From the human T2T-CHM13v2.0 reference genome, Homo sapiens: a DNA stretch of 64,000 bases. Shown here one piece after another: positions 19,185 through 33,780 of this stretch. Position numbers and translations under genes: made by a program. The stretch lies in assembly GCF_009914755.1 (NCBI RefSeq), contig NC_060947.1; one strand, written 5' to 3'. Within the stretch, counting starts at the first letter, position 1, and each line of letters opens with the position of its first letter. The notes under the pieces are model-generated. The model was not told the DNA's origin and searched no databases. It saw nothing but the letters and a program-made list of their open reading frames with translations.

Positions 19185-19449
19185 GGTAGGAAGGTGGGCC
19201 ATAGAGGGGAGGTGGATCAGCTCAGAAAAGGGTGAGTTGTGAAAGGAGACACTATCTGAAGTATTTGAGTCCTGGAGGCATATGAAACTGCCCACAGATA
19301 ACTGATTCTGGAGTTTTTAGTGGGGACCTGGGAAGGGGCAGGGTGGAGTAGGATGGGGCGGGGCACTGCAGTCTAAGAGGCAAGAGCCGGCCTCAGTGCA
19401 CATGTTTGCTGGGTGTCTTCCCGTCTGCCCCTTCGCACTGCGTGGTGAA

Positions 19450-19522: not shown

Positions 19523-19879
19523 ATAGGTCCATAGGTCAGTCCTCCCAGGAGTTTAAGTGTCAGTGAAGTGTCAGGTGGAGTTAGCAGGCTTTGGGCAGGT
19601 CAGGCAGTGTGGTAGGTGGCTTCACAGCGGGAAGGGCCTGGAGGTCATTGTTCTTTTAAGAGGTGGCTATTCTGCCGCCAGCCTTGTCGTTGTGGGACAG
19701 GGGAGGAAAGTGGGTCATGGAGGGGAGGAAGGTCAGCAGAAGATGAGGTGAGTTTTGGAGGAGGACATTATTTGAGGCATCTGAGCCTTTGAGGCTATGA
19801 AACCGCACACAGAGGATGGATTCCGGAGTCTTTAGTGGGGAACTGGGAGAGAGGGTGGGACAGACTGGTGCACCACAGC

Positions 19880-20604
19880 TGCCATGAATGGTGACAAGTT
19901 GGACATAACCAGGTCCACATGTGCTTGTGCCTTTCCACAATATCAGGCTTTTATTGATGCTAATTCAGTCGTAAAAGCCACAAGCTACACGGAGTTCCTA
20001 AGGAGGCAGTTCTCCTTAGCACTTATCGTTCACCTGGTAGTTAGAGCAGCAGGCACACAAACTCAAGCCACTCCACAAGTCAGTCAGTATTGCAAACCAT
20101 ACATAACAGTATGCTAAATCAATTTATAAGTGTTATAAGTTAAACATTCCACAACAAAGTAACACTTTTCATCAAAGTAAAACTTTTTCATTGAGAGGAA
20201 AAAGAGGACAAAGGGTTAAGGAACCAGTCCAGGGGGGGTGAAGAAGACAAAAAGAGTCCTGGTCTGGGCTGAGTGGTCCATGGGTCTTGCAAGGAAGTCT
20301 TTGACGTGGCAGAGCCTTTGGCAGCAAATGCCAAGTTCTTGTCATGATTGATTGCAAGAAGGTGTCAGTTAAGACAGATGTTTGAAACTGCTGAAGGCCT
20401 AATCTTTTATAGTCACAGGGTCCTCTGGTAAGAGCTGATCGTGGAAGAGTGCTTGTTTGTGTCCTTATCTGGTTGGATGCAGTCTTCATGTTTTATTTGT
20501 TTATTAAACAAAACATGCTATTATTGTTGGCAAAGTGCCCTATGAAATATAAAATGGAGTATTTTTCTAAGATGGTGTTAGTTATGTCAAGGGTGCTCTA
20601 TACA
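19880..20604 (-). mobile_element. 3' LTR, LTR47-like, ~725 bp
   Basis: Minus strand begins TGTATAGAGCACCCTTGACATAACTAACACCATCTTAG (LTR47-like) and ends TCATGGCA. AATAAA at ~19950. Preceded by PPT-like aaaatcttggagtagat (20605-20621). Confidence 0.85.
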
Positions 20605-21084
20605 ATCTACTCCAAGATTTTAGTAATCATAATGCAAACAATGTTTGAGGAAGGGGTTACAAAAATAAAAAATGACAAGTCACCATGGGAATTAATTTCC
20701 TCTTGGTAACTTGTTTACAATTTTGTGTTACAAAGGCTGAAAACGCAGATCTTAAGTATATGGTAAGCAAAGAGGATGTTTACAATGAAGATGACAACGT
20801 TCTGTAAATGTTCACAGATATATTTAGACCAATTCCAGAGTCCAGTTTTTAATATATTGATTGGGTTCCAGTCTGACCATGAGCCTTCATAAGGGGTATG
20901 GCTAAAAGTCTTCTTAATCATTTGGAAGAAGATGCATCTTCTGTGTAAGCCATCTAGTTTGAATGCTATTTTATTTGTGTTTAGTATTGCTAGTCCATGT
21001 GTTACTACCTCAGTGGTGTGTTTTAATTGTGCTAATTCTGTTTGGAATGTGTCATGAACTTGTTGAAGTTCCTTAGAGCTTCCT

Positions 21085-21465
21085 TGTGAAAGAGGAAAAG
21101 TTCCCTTATCCCCTCACAGGGCATGTGATGTGGGTGTGGCTTGCTTCTTCAGTGCCTGCTGCTCAAACCTCTAGGGGGAGCATGCAGACAGGCATGTTGT
21201 GGGGCTCTGACCCCAAGGCAGTGTCTAGGGGTGAATGCTTACAGCTCCTGAAGCCCCAGTGGGAGTGTGTTACAAGGTGCTCTTTTAGTTTAGCCATCTG
21301 TAGGCAGCTTGTGTTAGCTCAATTAGACTCCCTACCTTATCGCGAGGACAGAGGGCTTTCTGTATGCCAGGATTTCTTGCCTTGGTGTACTGGAAGAATC
21401 AGATCACATGTGGGTTTGGAGAATGAATGCAATGTTTTATTGAGTGGAAGTTCTCAGCAGATGGA
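21085..21465 (-). mobile_element. LTR1/LTR27/LTR28-type ERV1 LTR 3' fragment
   Basis: gaaaagttcccttatcccctcacagggc...aaacctctagggggagcatgcagacagg...gttttattgagtgg, recalled as the antisense end of HUERS-associated LTRs. Confidence 0.65.
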
Positions 21466-21983
21466 TGTTGCAGGAAGTCAGGGACCCCAAACGGAGGGAC
21501 TGGCTGAAGCCACGGCAGAAGAACGTAAATTGTGAAGATTTCATGGATATTTATTGGTTCCCCAAATTAATACTTTTATAATTTCTTATGCCTGTCTTTA
21601 CTGCAATCTCTGAACATAAATTGTGAAGATTTCATGGACATTTATTACTTCTCCAATCAATAATCTTATAATTTCCTATGCCTGTCTTTACTTTAATCTC
21701 TTAATCCTGTCATCTTTGTAAGCTGAAGATGTATGTCACCTCAGGACCCTGTGATGATTGCGTTATCTGCACACATTGTTTGAAAAGCACGTGTGTTTGA
21801 ACAATATGAAATCTGGGCACCTTGAAAAGAACAGGATAACAGCGATTTTCAGGGAACAAGGAAGATAACCATAAAGTCTGACTGCCTGTGAGGCCGGGCA
21901 GAACAGAGTCATATTTCTCTTCTTTCAGAAAGTGAATAGGAGAAATATCGCTGAATTATTTTCTCAGCAAGGAATAACCCTGG
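21466..21983 (+). mobile_element. MER11 (HERV-K11/HML-8) LTR 5' portion
   Basis: tgttgcaggaagtcagggaccccaaacggagggactggctgaagcc and the internal repeat aaattgtgaagatttcatgga. Confidence 0.88.
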
Positions 21984-22336
21984 TAAATGCATATCTGATT
22001 GCCTTCTTTAGAGAGGCTCATCAGAAACTCAAAAGAATGCAACCATTTATTTGTCTCTTATCTACCTATGACCTGGAAGTCTCCTCCCTGCTTCGAGTTG
22101 TCCAGCCTTTGCTTCGAGTTGTCCCGCCTTTTCCAGACTGAACCAATGTTCATCTTACATATGTTGATTGATGTTGCATGTCCCCCTAAAATATATAAAA
22201 CCAAACTGTGCTCTGACCACCTTGGGGACATGTCATCAGGACCTCCTGAGGCTGTGTCACAGGCATGTGTGCTCAGCCTTGGCAAAATAAACTTTCTAAA
22301 TTAACTGAGACCTGTCTCAGATATTCAGGGTTCACA
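21984..22336 (+). mobile_element. MER4A-type LTR 3' portion
   Basis: taaatgcatatctgattgcc...aaaataaactttctaaattaactgagacctgtctcagatattcagggttcaca. Confidence 0.82.
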
Positions 22337-25300
22337 GTTATAATAGGTCAGTGTGTTGTTCCTCTCTAAGCTTATTATCTAATTGAAGTTTCATAAGTCT
22401 AGAGTCATTGTGGGGATTTTCGTGATGCTGATAGTTGAGTAATCTAGTTTAGGAACTTTGTCCTGACAGGTAGAGTATATAGTGTTTGATCATTGGAATA
22501 TTAATTCTTTTTGTATAAAATAACCATCAATAAATAGTGGTCTTTCTAAGGCAGTTATATGTAGATTATGTCTTATCTTTCTGTGTAATTGCCATTGTGT
22601 CTTATGCCATTGAGTCTCCTCCTCTTAATTCAAGTAGATTTAATATACATTGCCCTGAATCCTGATGCTTTGGATGTATCCAATTTAACTATAGACATTT
22701 TGTCCCAATTTTCTGTGAATAATTTTCCTGATGTGTATAATGTTCCTTATGTCATTCCAAGTCTGAGTTAGTAAAATACTTAGCCTAATACACTGTGTTT
22801 GCAGCAAGTTTTTCACCATAAAGTTTCTTAATGTAAATAGGTTAGTTTTTAGGTGTTTAACTTGTGATCAATATTGTAATTGAATTCCTTTTGGGATTCT
22901 GGGAGGTCGTGTGTATGAGTCATCATTGACTATATCTCGTTAATTGCCTATGAGATAGATGAAAGTATAGATGTGGTAGTTGTTTGCAGGAGTTACGTTT
23001 ATGTTCATAGGTCTGTATTAACTTCCTAAATTTTTGCTTCTTGTATTCCTGAAATGACTGAGTTTGAAATAATTCCAATTGCTGCAAATAGTTGTGGTGG
23101 TTTTCTTAGATGATATTTATCTAGTGAAGGTAAATTTGGTAAAATGAACTGCTTGTCATATCCTTGTCCCTCAAATTACATAACTTGTGGTTTGATGTAT
23201 GTGACTTTAAGTTCTTTTTTGAAAAATATTTTGACTCTCCTAGGTGCTGGTTTGTAAATTAATCTTAATGGGTTAATTAGGATAGGTTCAACTAAATTTG
23301 GTTTTCATAATTTAGATAGAGGGTTTGTTATTCCTTTGGTACACTGTGGTGTCCAGTGGTGTGTTCCTAAGCAATGTGTCAGTCCAGCATCCTCTGCGAA
23401 TTATGCATGGCCCAAGGTTCTGGGGTTTAACATAGCATTTTGCAAAAGAGATATCTCTAGCTACAAATACAGGTAAGTGGGAGTCTAGTTTGGCTATATT
23501 TTGATAAATAGGATGTTGGACTGACCATATAACTTTATTCTATGATCCATCAAATGGCTGAATCATGAAGAAAAAGTAATTTGACATACCTGAGTCTATT
23601 TTTGTGACTTTATCCATATTTATTTTGGTTCCTAGTGTTTCCCACCAGTTAATTGACTTAAATTGTGTATTGTTTCTATCTACATCTTCAAAATTAAAGT
23701 TTACATCATCCTGAATTACCAGTGGATACATTGTAAAAATAACTTGATTTTGTATATACTTAGTTTTCCTGGTAAATTTGTCTAATATAGTTATGTCTCT
23801 TGGTTCATTTCCTGTAAAGAATGTGCCAATAACCTCTGCTGTTTTGTAGGTCAGTGTGAATGGTCCAAGTACTAAGAGTGAGTTAGATAATAGCAGATTG
23901 TATATATCTGGTCTGTGAGTAGATGTGAATATTAATTGTTCCCATTTTGTTTGTTGTAATTTATCAAAAATAACTGTTTCTAATGTCCAGTTTCTAATGT
24001 CCATGGGTTTCTAGAAGATGTCGACATCCAGCAATCAGTAAATTTAGTAGGGATTTTCTATGTCATTGTATCTATTGTGATGACTGGGAACTAGTGTGGT
24101 TTTTGTGGTTGTGTCCAACATAAGCCTGCTTTGGTTTCTGTCACATTCCACCATAGAGTGGACTTTCCAGTTATGATAACATATCTGTCTACATTCTCTA
24201 TAAACTCTTTGCTTATTGTGTAAAGGTAGTTTTGATATATTGTAGCCAAGTTTGCCATTTAATGTTGTAAATTTAGCATGTGTTTTATTATGCCAAAGTC
24301 TGAATTGTGCTGTGTCTGTTGGTTTGTTTTGTTTTGTAAAGCCTGTTGATCTTGGAACGTGTAACCATGTTAGTAAGCAACTTATAGTGTAGAATGGGCA
24401 AGGATAAGGTTTTCATCCGTGGGATAATGAAATGTAGCTTTAATATATGTAAAGTTAAGGTTAAAGCATATTAATGTTGGTTGTCCCTCAAAATGTATAT
24501 CTTGTTGGGTAGTGTTGATTCTATTTTTTATCTTTATAAGTTCCTTATTTGTGGAGGGCAAGTATAAGTATACTTGTATTCAAGACAAGCTTTATCTACA
24601 TACATTGTTTTAGTGTGTGTTTCAAAGGTAGTGTGTGTAAAGTGATAGTCAGCATTAGTTAAGATTACTGGGTGTCATCTATGTTTTCAATATAATTCTG
24701 CCAGTGAGAATTTTTTAGCCTTATTAAAGAATTGTTACTCCAGCTCTCTTTTGTCTAATAAAAAGAAAAAAGAAGAATTGTGAGACTGTCAAATAATTTT
24801 GGCTTTTTGCGTAATAATCATAAGATGAACAGGGTGGGTGAAGGCAAAATTTCCAAAAAACAGCAAGTTAGGAAAGTTAATTAGATGATAGTTATAGTAT
24901 GTCTTATCCTCTTCTGTTGTTATTATATCATAATCTAATGGATATCCTAGTGGCATTGACACTTTTTCCTGTGGGGGTCTGATATATGGGTGTAAGATGA
25001 AGTGGTTGGTTTTGTAGCTATATTTAGTCTTGTGTCATCCCTTGAATCTACTTCATAATCATAATGTTCATTTCCTTCAAGTCCAGATTGGTACCAGAAT
25101 TCATACCAACTATTAACAAATGACTTGTAGGAGTGTCGTATCATATCCAAGCATGTCATGTGAGATCTTCCAACATATGGTTCTATCTGTGGTACTATGA
25201 TTGGGGATTGGTATGATATAGCGCTTCTTATGTAATGAACTGTTTTGATTGGCATGTCTGTTTCTATTAGCATTTCTCTACCTATTATGTGAGCCATCCA

Positions 25301-25698
25301 TGGTTTGAGATGTTATTGAATGCTTCATTGTAGCTGCATAAGTTGGGGTGTCACATTTAGTCATGTCATTTATGCATTCTTCTAAAGTATGTTTAGGAAT
25401 ATGCGCAAAGATTCTATAAAGATACAATGATTGGAAGTGTGTGTAAAAGCTAAAAGCTCTTCAGGCATTGCTTTGGGTCAAATGAATATGAACAAAATAG
25501 TCTAATTGAAGCTCTAAGTATTCTTTTATCAGTCCCTTGACTTTCTAACAATTGTTCAAAAATGATATATTTTCATGAAGTATATATTGCGGAATTTGTT
25601 CTGGTAATCGTGTGATTTTAGGTGCTGTATGAGTTGGCACTGTTGGATATGTATGTGTTTGAGGCTCAGAAATTTTAATGGTTACTTTAGGAATAAAC

Positions 25699-25707
25699 AG
25701 TAGTAGC

Positions 25708-25747
<40 letters not shown>
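25699..25747. repeat. (TAG/ACT)n microsatellite inside the env-like region
   Basis: agtagtagcagtagtagt... run; reads as 13 Thr then ATT in the env frame. Confidence 0.9.
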
Positions 25748-26649
25748 TCTGTTATTTCCCTTCTATATCTCCTAACATATTTTAAGCTATTTGCATCAAT
25801 CTTATGTTTGCTATTAATTATCAGATGTATAGGCATTAAATATAGCACTGAAAACAAACTAAGATATAATAATCTATGTCATCCTAATATTTCTCTAAGT
25901 AGTATAGTCAAAGATTGCTTCCAGTAGTAGTATTGCTGCTGGGTTAGGTTGGGGTAGAACAAAGTAAGGTAGTTCTATGGGGTCTGTCCTCTCTTATTAA
26001 GCAGTTTAGCAATGCAACTTATATAATAGGTTAGTAGCCAAGCAAGACTTATGCAGTCATTGGGGTGTACACTTTCAACTAAACCTTCAATAGCTCCTAA
26101 TGCTGCAGTTAGTTCATAAACGTAAGGAGCAGAAAGGTGGCAGTGGCGCCTAGATTCTACAAAGTCTGGTCTGAAATTCCAGTCCATGCCTGCCTGTATG
26201 GGCCAGTCTGCTTGAGCTAATTCCTGAAGGAAATCTGGTGAAGGGGCTCTGAAAGCTATAGGTGGCGAACATGAGGCTGAAGCTTAAAAGGAAGGAGGGC
26301 AAGGCGGGATATACATGGATGATGGAGATCCTGGAGAGGCTAAGTCCATATGCTGGGGATGCATTATAGCTGTCAGTCTGCAAATTATTAATCAAATAAT
26401 ATACTTAACAAGCAGATAGTGAAATTTGTAAATTTTCTGCTGTGAGGGGTGTGTGTGCTTGTGTTAGTTTGATTTATCTGGTTACAGTCTCCCTGGTGGC
26501 AATATAAGTAATAACAAGGCAGTAAAGTTACTATGATGGCTAATATGAGGTGAATGAGAAAGTTGATAAGACCAGTTGAGAAGCTACACAAATTTGTAGC
26601 CATCTTGATGTCCTAAGTGAGTAAAGTATTTAATTATTCCAGTGATAGC

Positions 26650-30239
<3,590 letters not shown>

Positions 30240-32100: not shown

Positions 32101-32768
32101 TCTCAAAAAAAGTGCAGGGATTTCTTCTCTGGGGGCTCTGGTAATTAAAGGCTTAACATTTTGTCAGGTCCCTCAAGTCTGACCATACATCCTTGGGGGA
32201 TCCTACAGGGACTCTTTCTGACTTCCAACTCTGTTGGGTACCAAGGACTCTCAACACTAAGTACTGTATTTGGGCGATGAGCCCTCTGGCATGCCTGCTT
32301 AATTTTCTTAACTAGAACCCACATTATGCCATATTAGTAGCTACTTTATATAGTTTCTTAATAATATTTCAATTTCCCACCTTAACCGACTGTCTGAGTG
32401 GAGGTTATGTAATAATTGACTTTCTTTTGGCCAAATTAAAAATTTGTTTTGCCAGTCAGCATCCCATAAATTGAGACCTGCTTGATGTGAGCATTCCTGG
32501 CTCCCCCAGCTTCCTAGCTTGGCATCAACCAAGACCTTGTCAGCCGTTGGATCTTCACAACTTGAGCAAGTTGTCTTATCACCCAAGGTTTTCCTCAAGT
32601 AGCCAGGCTTTCAAGGTGAGGCGAGATTATGTCTGCTGTCAGAGAGCATGGCAGTTTGTTTTGTCAAATGGCGTGATTTCCAATGGAAGTTTTAGTGGGG
32701 GCTTTGGCCTTAAAATTGAGTACACCAATTATGCCAAGTAAGCCAACTGTGCCAGTTGTGCCCAGTAA

Positions 32769-32781
32769 GCTGACTATGCCA
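32769..32781 (-). other. primer binding site, tRNA-Ser-like
   Basis: TGGCATAGTCAGC, 3 nt after the 5' LTR; equals TGGCGTAGTCGGC (complement of the tRNA-Ser 3' end) after two CpG-type transitions. Confidence 0.75.
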
Positions 32782-32784
32782 GCT

Positions 32785-33334
32785 TATCATGAGAAGTACT
32801 GGATTAGAAATAACCAGGTCCATGCATGCTTGTGTCTTTCAACAATATCAGGTTTTTATTGATGCTATCCAATCACAAAAGCCATGAACTACATGGAGTT
32901 CCCAAGGAGACGCTTCCCCTTAGTTCTTCCTGTTCACTTAGTAGTCAGAGCCACAGGCACACAAGCTTAAGCCACTCCACAAGTCAGTCAGTATTGCAAA
33001 CCATACATAACAGTATGCCAAATCAATATGCAAGTGTTATAGGTTAAACACTCCACAACAAACAAAGTAAAATTTACCATCAAGAAGAAAAAGAGATAAG
33101 ATAAAGGATTAAGGAATCTGTCTAGGTGGAATGAAGAAGACAAAAGGAATCCTGGTCTGGGCCAGCCAGTCAATTGGTCTTGCAAGGAAGAGTGTTTGTG
33201 GTGGCAGAGCCTTTGGCAGCAGATGCCAAGTTCTTATCATAAATGACTGCAAGAAGGTATCAGTGAAGATGGCTGTTTTGAGCTGCTGAAGGTGTAAACT
33301 TTTATAGTCACAGAGTCCTCTGGTGAGAACTGAT
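32785..33334 (-). mobile_element. 5' LTR, LTR47-like, U3 start deleted
   Basis: Colinear with 19880-20438, e.g. shared aagccactccacaagtcagtcagtattgcaaaccatacataacagtatgc. Homology stops at 33334, about 165 bp short of the full LTR. Confidence 0.88.
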
Positions 33335-33339
33335 TTGAG

Positions 33340-33431
33340 TGTGAAATGTGAGTGGGTGAGGAAGATTAGCATACAGGCCTTAACCAAGAAGAAATGGACA
33401 AGAATCTTCTCAGCCTGATAGGCCTGTGGTT
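33340..33431 (+). pseudogene. PAGE/XAGE-like exon 2 (first coding exon)
   Basis: ag|tgtgaaatGTG, ATG>GTG at 33348. Reads (V)SG*GRLAYRP*PRRNGQESSQ, then frameshift, IGPVV. Donor gtgcgt. Compare GAGE MSWRGRSTYRPRPRR and PAGE2 GNDQESSQPVGSVI. Confidence 0.85.
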
Positions 33432-33780
33432 GTGCGTACTTTAACATTTGATATTTTCTATTAGCTGAAATTTCTTTTTGTAATAGTGTTGTTGAACTAG
33501 TATAGATACACTGATAAAGATCTTCCATGCTGATAAAAAATGATCATGGCATCTCATGAAGGAAAGACTAATCTAAGAGGATTATGTTCTGGCTTTGCCT
33601 AGATGAATGATCTTGTGTTTCCCAGATTTTGCCCATGACTCCCTCCTCATGCTTATTGATAACAGATTGCACACATCTATCCCAACAGAGGTTAAAATGA
33701 CTTCTAAAACCCTTGAGGGTGTCTCTGTCTTAGAGTAACCTCTCCATGGGAAGAGTAACTTTATGAAGAATAAGTATATG

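What the first reader, a model, noticed from the sequence alone, without database searches (positions are those of the whole stretch)
20715..26187. Very large env-like gene with foamy-virus-like two-cleavage layout in a class III ERV
Seen, reading the minus strand through stops. ORF 26187-25975 continues past one TAG in the same frame (NYLTLFYPNLTQQQYYYWKQ..) into a hydrophobic segment LLYLSLFSVLYLMPIHLII. It then reaches a furin site RRYRR|EITD (25759-25773) and a Thr/Pro-rich stretch. SU-like blocks follow (ORFs 24947-25297 and 23540-24004). Next come RKPP|QLFAAIGIISNSVISG (23106-23047; one base from RKPR, followed by a fusion-peptide-like run) and a long heptad-like stretch IQEAKI*EVNTDL..ILSSIS*AINEI. 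Beyond the LTR stack are a second heptad ELQQVHDTFQTELAQLKHTTEVVTHGLAIL, a Trp-rich segment and a TM segment. Without the insert this is ~4.2 kb (~1400 codons). I saw no CX6CC/immunosuppressive motif. Established: HERV-L lacks env, gamma-type Envs are roughly half this length and carry CX6CC, and spumavirus Env has a long leader with furin cleavage at LP/SU and SU/TM. Inference: this is a distant spuma-type or paramyxo-F-like class I fusogen. From memory, IRHSYKSFVNSWY and frameshift-corrected QCPLGY (~24950) echo foamy SU motifs HRKCYQEFANCY and QCPLPGY, but this match is tentative.
Basis: partly seen in the sequence, partly recalled or inferred. Interest (0 to 1): 0.88.

Follow-up and report, generated by a model that had tools for sequence, protein, structure and literature searches.

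The report
Decayed giant envelope gene, old ERV
This is the broken remnant of an unusually long envelope-type gene in an ancient foamy-like endogenous retrovirus; it looks like a membrane-fusion protein, matches no known envelope family, and only half of the proposed foamy-virus layout holds up.

Summary
The quoted peptides are all at the stated coordinates on the minus strand. They lie between integrase and the 3' LTR of an old provirus (window ~19.9-33.5 kb; LTR K2P 0.21) whose RT is closest to foamy-virus RT among solved structures.

Residual coding is real:
- Window 23095-26400 holds 12 ORFs of 60 aa or more, against 3.0 in shuffles (0 of 300 reach 12).
- The terminal 132-aa ORF is reached by 0 of 300 shuffles.

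Supported:
- A ~197-residue leader with a hydrophobic segment and a polybasic RRYRR site, kept in 3 of 3 aligned copies.
- A hydrophobic run followed by a significant heptad repeat.
- A Trp-rich segment, membrane anchor and 5-residue tail just before the LTR.
- A domain shared with non-human ORFs at 26-50% identity.

Not supported:
- The second "furin" site. None of 5 sequences has the motif, and 3 of 5 carry a stop codon just before the fusion-peptide-like run.
- The foamy SU motif echo.
- Any sequence or fold link to foamy, gamma-type or paramyxovirus proteins.

Verdict: an env-like, class-I-type fusogen remnant of about 1,530 codons. Foamy homology is unproven. All seven human loci are broken or truncated.

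The parts
19899..20604 (-). 3' LTR of the provirus
   Evidence: Pairs with 32804-33334. More than 200 solo-LTR candidates start at about 20604. The well-aligned 534 nt are 82.4% identical, K2P 0.207.
32778..33510 (-). 5' LTR (outer ~170 nt aligns poorly with the 3' LTR)
26717..29917 (-). pol remnant: RT, RNase H and integrase, with an Alu inside at 27602-27909
   Evidence: RVT_1 2.6e-11 and rve 1e-6. RNase_H 2e-5, no dUTPase. RT is nearest to foamy PR-RT chains at 9e-19, next best 6e-9.
26391..26603 (-). Small 71-codon ORF with a strongly hydrophobic N-terminal segment, between pol and the leader
   Evidence: Open in the X and chr7 copies, and no stop in the aligned parts of chr15, chr19 and chr1. 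It ends in a shared double stop.
25774..26349 (-). Leader-like N-terminal part (~192 codons, 2 stops in this copy) with a hydrophobic segment at 25813-25875
   Evidence: The Met at 26349 is kept in 3 of 4 copies. Kyte-Doolittle 2.11 over 19 aa. The chr7 copy has a 181-aa ORF here.
25759..25773 (-). Polybasic RRYRR site (furin-type R-x-K/R-R)
   Evidence: RRYRR in X and chr7, R-YKR in chr19: 3 of 3 aligned copies
25699..25747 (-). Thr run, an expanded (AGT)n microsatellite inside a conserved Thr/Pro-rich linker
23095..25698 (-). SU-like part (~870 codons), broken by stops and frame changes
   Evidence: ORF excess. Of the 11 frame junctions tested on the whole path, 9 are read straight through by at least one other copy.
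23235..23710 (-). Conserved domain (WW.TLG .. DPGM..YFF .. QHPIY.NIT.xDS.LPIF.AK..F..C .. HWK..W..GITN) shared with non-human ORFs
23092..23094 (-). Codon just before the fusion-peptide-like run: CAA here and in a duplicated chr7 piece, a stop codon in chr7, chr4 and chr1
22870..23091 (-). Fusion-peptide-like hydrophobic run followed by heptad repeat 1 (cut by private indels in this copy)
22364..22869 (-). Heavily decayed middle of the fusion-subunit-like part
   Evidence: No ORF excess in X. Weak excess in chr4: 3 ORFs of 60 aa or more against 0.86, reached by 4.7% of shuffles.
21088..22363 (.). Foreign repeats replacing about 222 nt of the element
20715..21113 (-). Terminal 132-codon ORF: second helical stretch, Trp-rich segment, membrane anchor (20730-20810), 5-residue tail and stop, about 110 nt before the LTR
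   Evidence: The only other copy is chr4.

Best explanation
Window ~26.35-20.7 kb (minus strand) is the dead remnant of one very long envelope gene, about 1,530 codons once the foreign insert is discounted. It belongs to an old, low-copy endogenous retrovirus with a foamy-like pol.

Inferred working of the ancestral protein: a precursor enters the membrane through the hydrophobic segment of a ~197-residue leader and is cut by a furin-type protease at RRYRR. A large (~890-residue) surface part binds the cell. A ~440-residue fusion part drives fusion in the class I manner. That part has an N-terminal hydrophobic run, a long heptad repeat, a large central region, a second helical stretch, a Trp-rich membrane-proximal segment, a membrane anchor and a 5-residue tail.

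Shown: the position, the ORF excess, the hydrophobic segments, conservation of the polybasic site, the heptad signal, and relatives of one domain outside the human genome. Inferred: cleavage, topology, trimer and six-helix bundle, and receptor binding.

The gene is not gamma-type. It cannot be tied by sequence or fold to foamy Env. All human copies are broken or truncated.
For: Position: between the integrase end (~26717) and the 3' LTR (20604), with the stop 110 nt before the LTR.

Pol: the RT ORF hits foamy PR-RT chains at 9e-19 to 1e-16, and the next best hit is 6e-9.

Coding signal: 12 ORFs of 60 aa or more against 3.04 in shuffles (0 of 300 reach 12). The terminal 132-aa ORF is reached by 0 of 300 shuffles.

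Frame continuity: 9 of 11 frame junctions are read straight through by at least one other copy.

Hydrophobic segments of 19 aa or more occur only near the N-terminal end (three: the small upstream ORF, a marginal one inside the leader, and the leader segment at 25813-25875) and at the extreme C-terminus.

RRYRR is kept in 3 of 3 copies.

Heptad repeat: the score in the chr4 ORF is reached by 1 of 300 shuffles.

One domain has 7 non-human relatives at 26-50% identity by BLASTP, including a conserved N-x-S/T sequon. The best human match of two of them (P0014, P0008) is this same family at 48% and 40%.

Spacing resembles the large fusion subunit of foamy Env. Here HR1 to HR2 is about 260 aa, HR2 to anchor about 47 aa, and the tail 5 aa. 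In PFV, HR1 is 664-691, HR2 880-908 and the anchor 961-980 of 988 (PMC4939959, passages).
Against: No protein family, solved-structure sequence or fold match for any part.

Three of 5 sequences have a stop codon between the SU-like part and the fusion-peptide-like run. No copy has a cleavage motif there.

Window 22364-23094 shows no ORF excess in this copy.

Heptad 2 is not above chance (15% of shuffles reach it).

N-x-S/T density (0.88 per 100 aa) is no higher than in the other frames.

dN/dS and codon-position tests give no signal for env. They are weak even for pol.

Two frame junctions (~24990, ~24080) are shifted in 2 of 2 other copies.

Only two copies hold the 3' end.
Confidence: 0.7

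Rival explanations
1. It is a true, very distant homologue of spumavirus Env, with leader, surface and transmembrane subunits and the foamy budding and fusion mechanism.
For: Pol is nearest to foamy RT. The leader has a hydrophobic segment followed by a conserved polybasic site. The fusion-subunit-like part is about 440 residues with a long HR1-HR2 distance and a tail of a few residues, as in PFV.
Against: The Pfam-A library gave no match from 3 frames of this copy or 18 frame translations of five other copies. That this library contains a foamy Env model is my recollection. No foamy chain appears in 7 PDB sequence searches (and 88 for IN only), although the bank holds a foamy fusion glycoprotein (8rm1, listed). 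There is no second furin motif in any of 5 sequences. The leader and the surface part are 1.5 and 2 times as long as in PFV. Kojima 2018 (PMC5753468, passages) treats ERV3 and spumaviruses as separate lineages.
Confidence: 0.2
2. Two or more genes rather than one: a ~1,100-codon secreted or leader-anchored glycoprotein ending at the stop near 23094, plus a separate 3' accessory gene encoding a small tail-anchored coiled-coil protein. This would be comparable in position to the accessory genes that foamy viruses carry after env.
For: Three of 5 sequences have a stop codon at 23092-23094. This copy shows no ORF excess at 22364-23094. In chr4 the terminal ORF extends about 67 codons upstream and contains a Met.
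Against: The hydrophobic run and the significant heptad begin directly after that stop. Two of 5 sequences are open there. The large ORF would have no C-terminal anchor. The chr4 ORFs overlap in a way that fits one frameshifted gene. chr4 shows a weak ORF excess across the middle.
Confidence: 0.15
3. Not an envelope gene: a captured host gene or unrelated ORF remnants that only look like a membrane protein.
For: No family match anywhere. Sequon density is not raised. The terminal ORF has an odd weak match to LRP4 YWTD repeats, with full-sequence E 9e-5 but per-repeat E 1.8-5. Gene capture in ERVs is documented (PMC4299795, passages).
Against: The position, strand, leader, anchor at the very end, heptad repeat, and presence in at least 4 independent insertions joined to the same pol all fit env. 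Pfam gives no Ldl_recept_b match. P0014 and P0008 find no host gene in the human genome, only this ERV family.
Confidence: 0.07

Closest known systems
Spumavirus (foamy virus) Env, gp18LP-gp80SU-gp48TM
   Same: It follows a foamy-like pol. It has a long leader with an internal hydrophobic segment and a polybasic cleavage motif after it. It has a large fusion subunit with widely spaced heptads, a C-terminal anchor and a tail of a few residues.
   Different: No sequence or fold similarity was detectable. There is no furin motif before the fusion subunit. The total is about 1,530 codons against 988 residues. The leader cytoplasmic part is about 158 residues against 67. No di-lysine end is present (that foamy Env ends this way is recalled, not tested).
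Paramyxovirus/pneumovirus F and other large class I fusogens
   Same: A hydrophobic Gly/Ala/Ile-rich run is followed directly by a long heptad repeat. A large region separates it from the second helical stretch. A Trp-rich segment and an anchor follow.
   Different: No Pfam match. About 1,090 residues lie upstream of the hydrophobic run. No basic cleavage motif sits next to it.
Gamma-type retroviral Env (as carried by HERV-S/HERV18, HERVL32 and HERVL66 by recombination)
   Same: An envelope gene in a class III human ERV (PMC5753468 and PMC4724089, passages).
   Different: No Pfam match of any kind. No CX6CC in the TM-like part of any of 6 copies. About twice the length, with a far longer HR1-HR2 distance.
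ERV3 elements with env in reptiles, birds and other taxa (Repbase; Chong et al. 2014, PMC4299795)
   Same: These are class III ERVs that keep an env. The non-human relatives found here may belong to such lineages.
   Different: I saw only passages of that paper. The type of those envs and any link to this one are unknown to me.

Membership tests
Spumavirus Env | Sequence match to the family profile (a foamy Env model in Pfam-A; its presence there is recalled) | tested here: not met
   No hit at E<=10 in 3 frames of 20441-27140, at E<=1 in 12 ORF pieces, or at E<=5 in 18 frame translations of five other copies. HMMER's filters drop most hits above about 0.1.
Spumavirus Env | Leader peptide with an internal membrane-spanning segment, cut off at a furin site | tested here: met
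   Hydrophobic segment at 25813-25875, then RRYRR 18 residues later, kept in 3 of 3 copies. Cleavage itself is inferred.
Spumavirus Env | Furin site between the surface and transmembrane subunits | tested here: not met
   RKPP, RKPL, RKAL, (R)NLL and RKFL in the 5 sequences. Three of 5 have a stop codon just after, before the fusion-peptide-like run.
Spumavirus Env | Fold of the receptor-binding domain or fusion subunit | tested here: inconclusive
   AlphaFold2 models had mean pLDDT 28 and 46.5. Foldseek against the PDB gave best E 1.6 and TM 0.15.
Gamma-type Env | TLV_coat profile match and CX6CC after heptad 1 | tested here: not met
   No Pfam hit. No CX6CC in the TM-like part of any of 6 copies. 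One private CX6CC in the SU-like part of chr7.
Paramyxovirus/pneumovirus F | Fusion_gly profile match; basic cleavage site directly before the fusion peptide | tested here: not met
   No Pfam hit. No basic motif adjoining the hydrophobic run.
Class I viral fusion glycoprotein (architecture) | Hydrophobic fusion peptide followed by heptad repeat 1 | tested here: met
   The run is conserved in 4 copies. The heptad score of 0.72 is reached by 1 of 300 shuffles.
Class I viral fusion glycoprotein (architecture) | Heptad repeat 2, membrane-proximal segment and C-terminal anchor | tested here: inconclusive
   The anchor is clear (Kyte-Doolittle 2.36) and the Trp-rich segment is present. The heptad 2 score is reached by 15% of shuffles.
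Class I viral fusion glycoprotein (architecture) | Trimeric six-helix bundle of HR1 and HR2 | not testable with these tools
   The complex predictor was not available.
Class III (spuma-like, ERV-L/ERV-S type) ERV | Pol nearest to the spumavirus / class III clade | tested here: met
   RT hits foamy PR-RT at 9e-19, lentiviral RT at 6e-9 or weaker. Integrase does not discriminate. No tree was built.
ERV-L lineage | dUTPase after integrase | tested here: not met
   No dUTPase hit in pol or downstream in any frame. Kojima 2018 says the ERVS lineage lacks it.
ERVL47 / LTR47 (Repbase, Dfam) | Match to the family consensus | not testable with these tools
No repeat library is available.

The most novel reading that the evidence does not exclude
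This is the remnant of the native envelope gene of a mammalian class III (ERV-L/S-like) retrovirus lineage. It would be a ~1,500-residue class I fusogen with a foamy-style leader. It would form its own protein family, with relatives in other animal genomes, and would be unrelated in sequence to foamy, gamma-type or beta-type Env. That would fill the gap stated in print that human class III ERVs have no known envelope of their own.
Probability: 0.3. Interest if true: 0.85.

Novelty: new variant of a known kind. Interest (0 to 1): 0.6.

Why it matters
Vargiu et al. [quoted passage not shown] They add that every credible class III Env they saw was of class I type. Kojima 2018 (PMC5753468, passages) says most mammalian ERV3 families lack env.

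An envelope remnant of a different type, tied to a foamy-like pol in at least four independent human insertions, would show what the infectious ancestors of these elements used to enter cells. The same would follow from its relatives at 26-50% identity in other genomes. It would also add a new family to the class I fusogens.

My searches for "ERVL47", "LTR47"+env, class III+env terms and "HSERVIII" found no description of it. Repbase and Dfam entries, and the supplements of these papers, were not seen and may already note it.

Tried and rejected
- Codon-position periodicity of substitutions between copies and pooled dN/dS in true against shifted frames. Both are weak even for RT (0.49 against 0.73-0.88) and give no consistent signal for env. 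The copies differ mainly by decay after insertion, so these tests have little power.
- Sequon and Cys density: not above the other frames.
- Large protein searches. The word-indexed library with the 233-aa and 132-aa pieces returned only a 99% identical 154-aa fragment and nothing, respectively. The A4 alignment against longer proteins returned none. P0010 and P0012 are bacterial repeat proteins and were dropped as spurious.
- AlphaFold2 on window 23378-23989 with 8 rows (pLDDT 28) and on the chr7 domain with 14 rows (pLDDT 46.5). Foldseek on the second model gave nothing meaningful.
- Neutral-decay simulation on synthetic ORFs. Only 0.5-1.8% of 133-codon ORFs stay open at 45-60% identity. This suggests the non-human relatives evolved under constraint. 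I do not count it as proof, because an ORF database preferentially records the ones that stayed open.
- My first reading of "shared stops" in this copy's frames as proof of a dead master copy was wrong. Many of them reflect private indels in this copy.
Full report
**Setting**

The finding lies on the minus strand inside a provirus.
- Direct repeats at 19899-20439 and 32804-33334, spaced about 12.9 kb apart and 80-86% identical, are its LTRs.
- More than 200 solo-LTR candidates elsewhere in the genome begin at about window 20604. Of 224 candidates, 40 were scored and all 40 matched; 39 of these, including this locus and the 5' LTR of the chr7 copy, cover the LTR part.
- The well-aligned 534 nt of the two LTRs are 82.4% identical. 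K2P is 0.207, roughly 47 My at 2.2e-9 per site per year. The outer ~170 nt align poorly.

Between the LTRs lie an RT (RVT_1 2.6e-11), an RNase H (2e-5) and an integrase core (1e-6). There is no dUTPase and no recognisable gag family. An Alu sits in pol at 27602-27909. The RT ORF matches foamy-virus PR-RT chains at 9e-19 to 1e-16, and the next best hits are lentiviral at 6e-9 or weaker. Integrase does not discriminate. So the pol is spuma-like (class III).

**Copies**

The same internal sequence occurs at six other human loci: chr7, chr19, two on chr15, chr4 and chr1. Identity to this copy is 67-83%.
- Four of the seven loci (X, chr7, chr19, one chr15) hold the part corresponding to window ~26.5-24.2 kb.
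- chr4 and chr1 lack most of it, through different deletions.
- The second chr15 copy ends near 26772.
- The terminal ORF is found only here and on chr4.
- Window 21088-22363 is foreign. chr4 and chr19 have about 222 nt there instead, and no trace of those is left here. Window 21466-21987 is a repeat with 7,855 candidates, of which 40 were scored: this locus itself plus 39 others at 90-93% identity.

**Is it coding?**

In window 23095-26400 the minus strand has 12 stop-free stretches of 60 aa or more and 4 of 100 aa or more. Dinucleotide shuffles give means of 3.04 and 0.18, and 0 of 300 reach 12. The plus strand has 3 and 0. The 132-aa terminal ORF is reached by 0 of 300 shuffles. Window 22364-23094 shows no excess in this copy. 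On chr4 the corresponding stretch plus the 222 nt has 3 ORFs of 60 aa or more against 0.86 expected, reached by 4.7% of shuffles.

The open stretches change frame in this copy. Of the 11 junctions tested, 9 are read straight through by at least one other copy, so those breaks are not ancestral. Examples private to this copy are an exact 14-nt tandem duplication at 23976-24003 and a shift near 23378. Two junctions (~24990 and ~24080) are shifted in 2 of 2 aligned copies.

Tests for purifying selection between copies had no power.

**Anatomy, from 5' to 3'**

1. A 71-codon ORF (26603-26391) with a very hydrophobic N-terminal segment. It has no stop in any of the five copies that cover it and ends in a shared double stop.
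2. A leader-like part from a Met at 26349 (kept in 3 of 4 copies). It has a hydrophobic segment at 25875-25813 and, 18 residues later, RRYRR at 25773-25759. chr7 has RRYRR and chr19 has R-YKR, so the site is kept in 3 of 3 aligned copies.
3. A Thr run that is an (AGT)16.3 microsatellite in this copy. It sits within a Thr/Pro-rich linker that other copies share.
4. About 870 further codons of SU-like sequence without any hydrophobic segment.
5. A codon at 23094-23092 that is CAA here and in a duplicated piece inside the chr7 copy, but a stop in chr7, chr4 and chr1. The residues before it are RKPP, RKPL, RKAL, (R)NLL and RKFL, never a furin motif.
6. Directly after it, a conserved hydrophobic Gly/Ala/Ile-rich run and a heptad repeat. 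On chr4 this is one 61-aa ORF whose heptad score (0.72 over 42 residues) is reached by 1 of 300 shuffles. chr19 continues the pattern.
7. A badly decayed middle, and the insert.
8. The terminal ORF, with a second helical stretch (heptad score not above chance, reached by 15% of shuffles), a Trp-rich segment, a membrane anchor (20810-20730), five more residues and a stop 110 nt before the LTR. On chr4 this ORF reaches about 67 codons further upstream.

Counted from 26349, and replacing the insert by 222 nt, the whole is about 1,530 codons: 197 + 888 + about 443.

**Relatives**

No Pfam family matches any frame of this copy, any of 18 frame translations of five other copies, or the relatives found later.

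PDB sequence searches with six pieces or profiles of the env region found nothing convincing. The bank does hold a foamy fusion glycoprotein (8rm1, listed). The one low E-value was LRP4 YWTD repeats against the terminal ORF (9e-5). It comes from summing several per-repeat matches of E 1.8-5, and I regard it as chance.

A full HMMER scan of 1.84 billion representatives with window 23378-23989 gave 14 hits.
- Two are bacterial repeat proteins and were dropped.
- Five are close fragments (62-98% identity).
- Seven are short ORFs (73-133 aa) at 26-50% identity to this family by BLASTP. They share blocks such as WW.TLG, DPGM..YFF, QHPIY.NIT.xDS.LPIF.AK and HWK..W..GITN.
- The best human match of two of them (P0014, P0008) is this same family at 48% and 40%, so those two are not human.
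- One of them (P0014) runs in a single frame across the place where this copy shifts frame.

These relatives show a real protein domain, with a conserved N-x-S/T sequon, in other lineages. A neutral-decay null makes chance survival of such ORFs unlikely (0.5-1.8%). I give this limited weight, because ORF libraries preferentially record the survivors. No longer relative was found, and nothing was found in viral contigs.

Structure prediction failed (pLDDT 28 and 46.5) and the fold search was empty.

**Reading**

The position, the strand, the hydrophobic segments confined to the two ends, the conserved polybasic site after the leader segment, the hydrophobic run with heptad repeat, and the Trp-rich segment, anchor and very short tail at the end together fit one envelope gene of class I fusogen type.

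The spacing of its fusion part is like foamy Env, and like paramyxovirus F by recollection. It is unlike orthoretroviral TM. Here HR1 to HR2 is about 260 residues, HR2 to anchor about 47, and the tail 5. In PFV, HR1 is 664-691, HR2 880-908 and the anchor 961-980 of 988, and the leader anchor is at 68-89 (PMC4939959, passages).

Homology with foamy Env remains open. It is not gamma-type: there is no Pfam hit and no CX6CC in the TM-like part of any of 6 copies. The stop codon in 3 of 5 sequences keeps a two-gene reading alive.

**What is in print**

- Kojima 2018 (PMC5753468, passages) lists ERVL47 with LTR47B variants under ERV3. It says most mammalian ERV3 families lack env, and that HERV18, HERVL32 and HERVL66 carry ERV1-like env by recombination.
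- Vargiu 2016 (PMC4724089, passages) says the class III supergroup has no known envelope of its own.
- Chong 2014 (PMC4299795, passages) reports recognisable env in crocodilian and other Repbase ERV3 groups.
- PMC8278194 (passages) calls class III ERVs "largely env-less".

My seven searches found no description of this gene. I did not see Repbase or Dfam records, or any supplement.

Noticed in passing
window 26391-26603 (-): A 71-codon ORF with a strongly hydrophobic N-terminal segment lies between the end of pol and the env leader. It is free of stops in all five copies that cover it and ends in a shared double stop. It could be the true signal peptide separated by an old frameshift, or a small membrane protein encoded just upstream of env.
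   Followed up: partly
window 20850-20970 (-), inside the terminal ORF: Weak match to LRP4 YWTD (LDL-receptor class B) repeats: full-sequence E 9e-5 but per-repeat E 1.8-5. Pfam shows no Ldl_recept_b hit. Probably chance.
   Followed up: partly
window 32720-32777 (-): Just inside the 5' LTR, a unit beginning TGGCA.AGT..GCTTACT occurs twice in tandem, and is also seen in the chr7 and chr4 copies. Its first 13 bases look, from recollection only, like a CpG-decayed tRNA-Ser-type primer binding site. Not tested.
   Followed up: partly
L060:9194-9297 (chr7 copy): The chr7 copy carries a second, displaced copy of the stretch matching window 23167-23064, at 89% identity. It is open at the codon where the chr7 copy proper has a stop. 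This hints at two subfamilies or at template switching.
   Followed up: partly
window 21466-21987, with 21521-21701: The foreign insert contains a ~522-bp high-copy repeat (7,855 candidates; the 39 scored matches elsewhere in the genome are 90-93% identical). Inside it is a 90-nt unit repeated twice in tandem. The flanking parts of the insert were not identified.
   Followed up: partly
window 19281-19333 and 19796-19848: A 53-nt direct repeat (83% identical, 515 nt apart) sits in a G+C-richer stretch just outside the 3' LTR.
   Followed up: no
window 27602-27909: An Alu is inserted in the pol gene. The other copies carry many independent Alu insertions.
   Followed up: no
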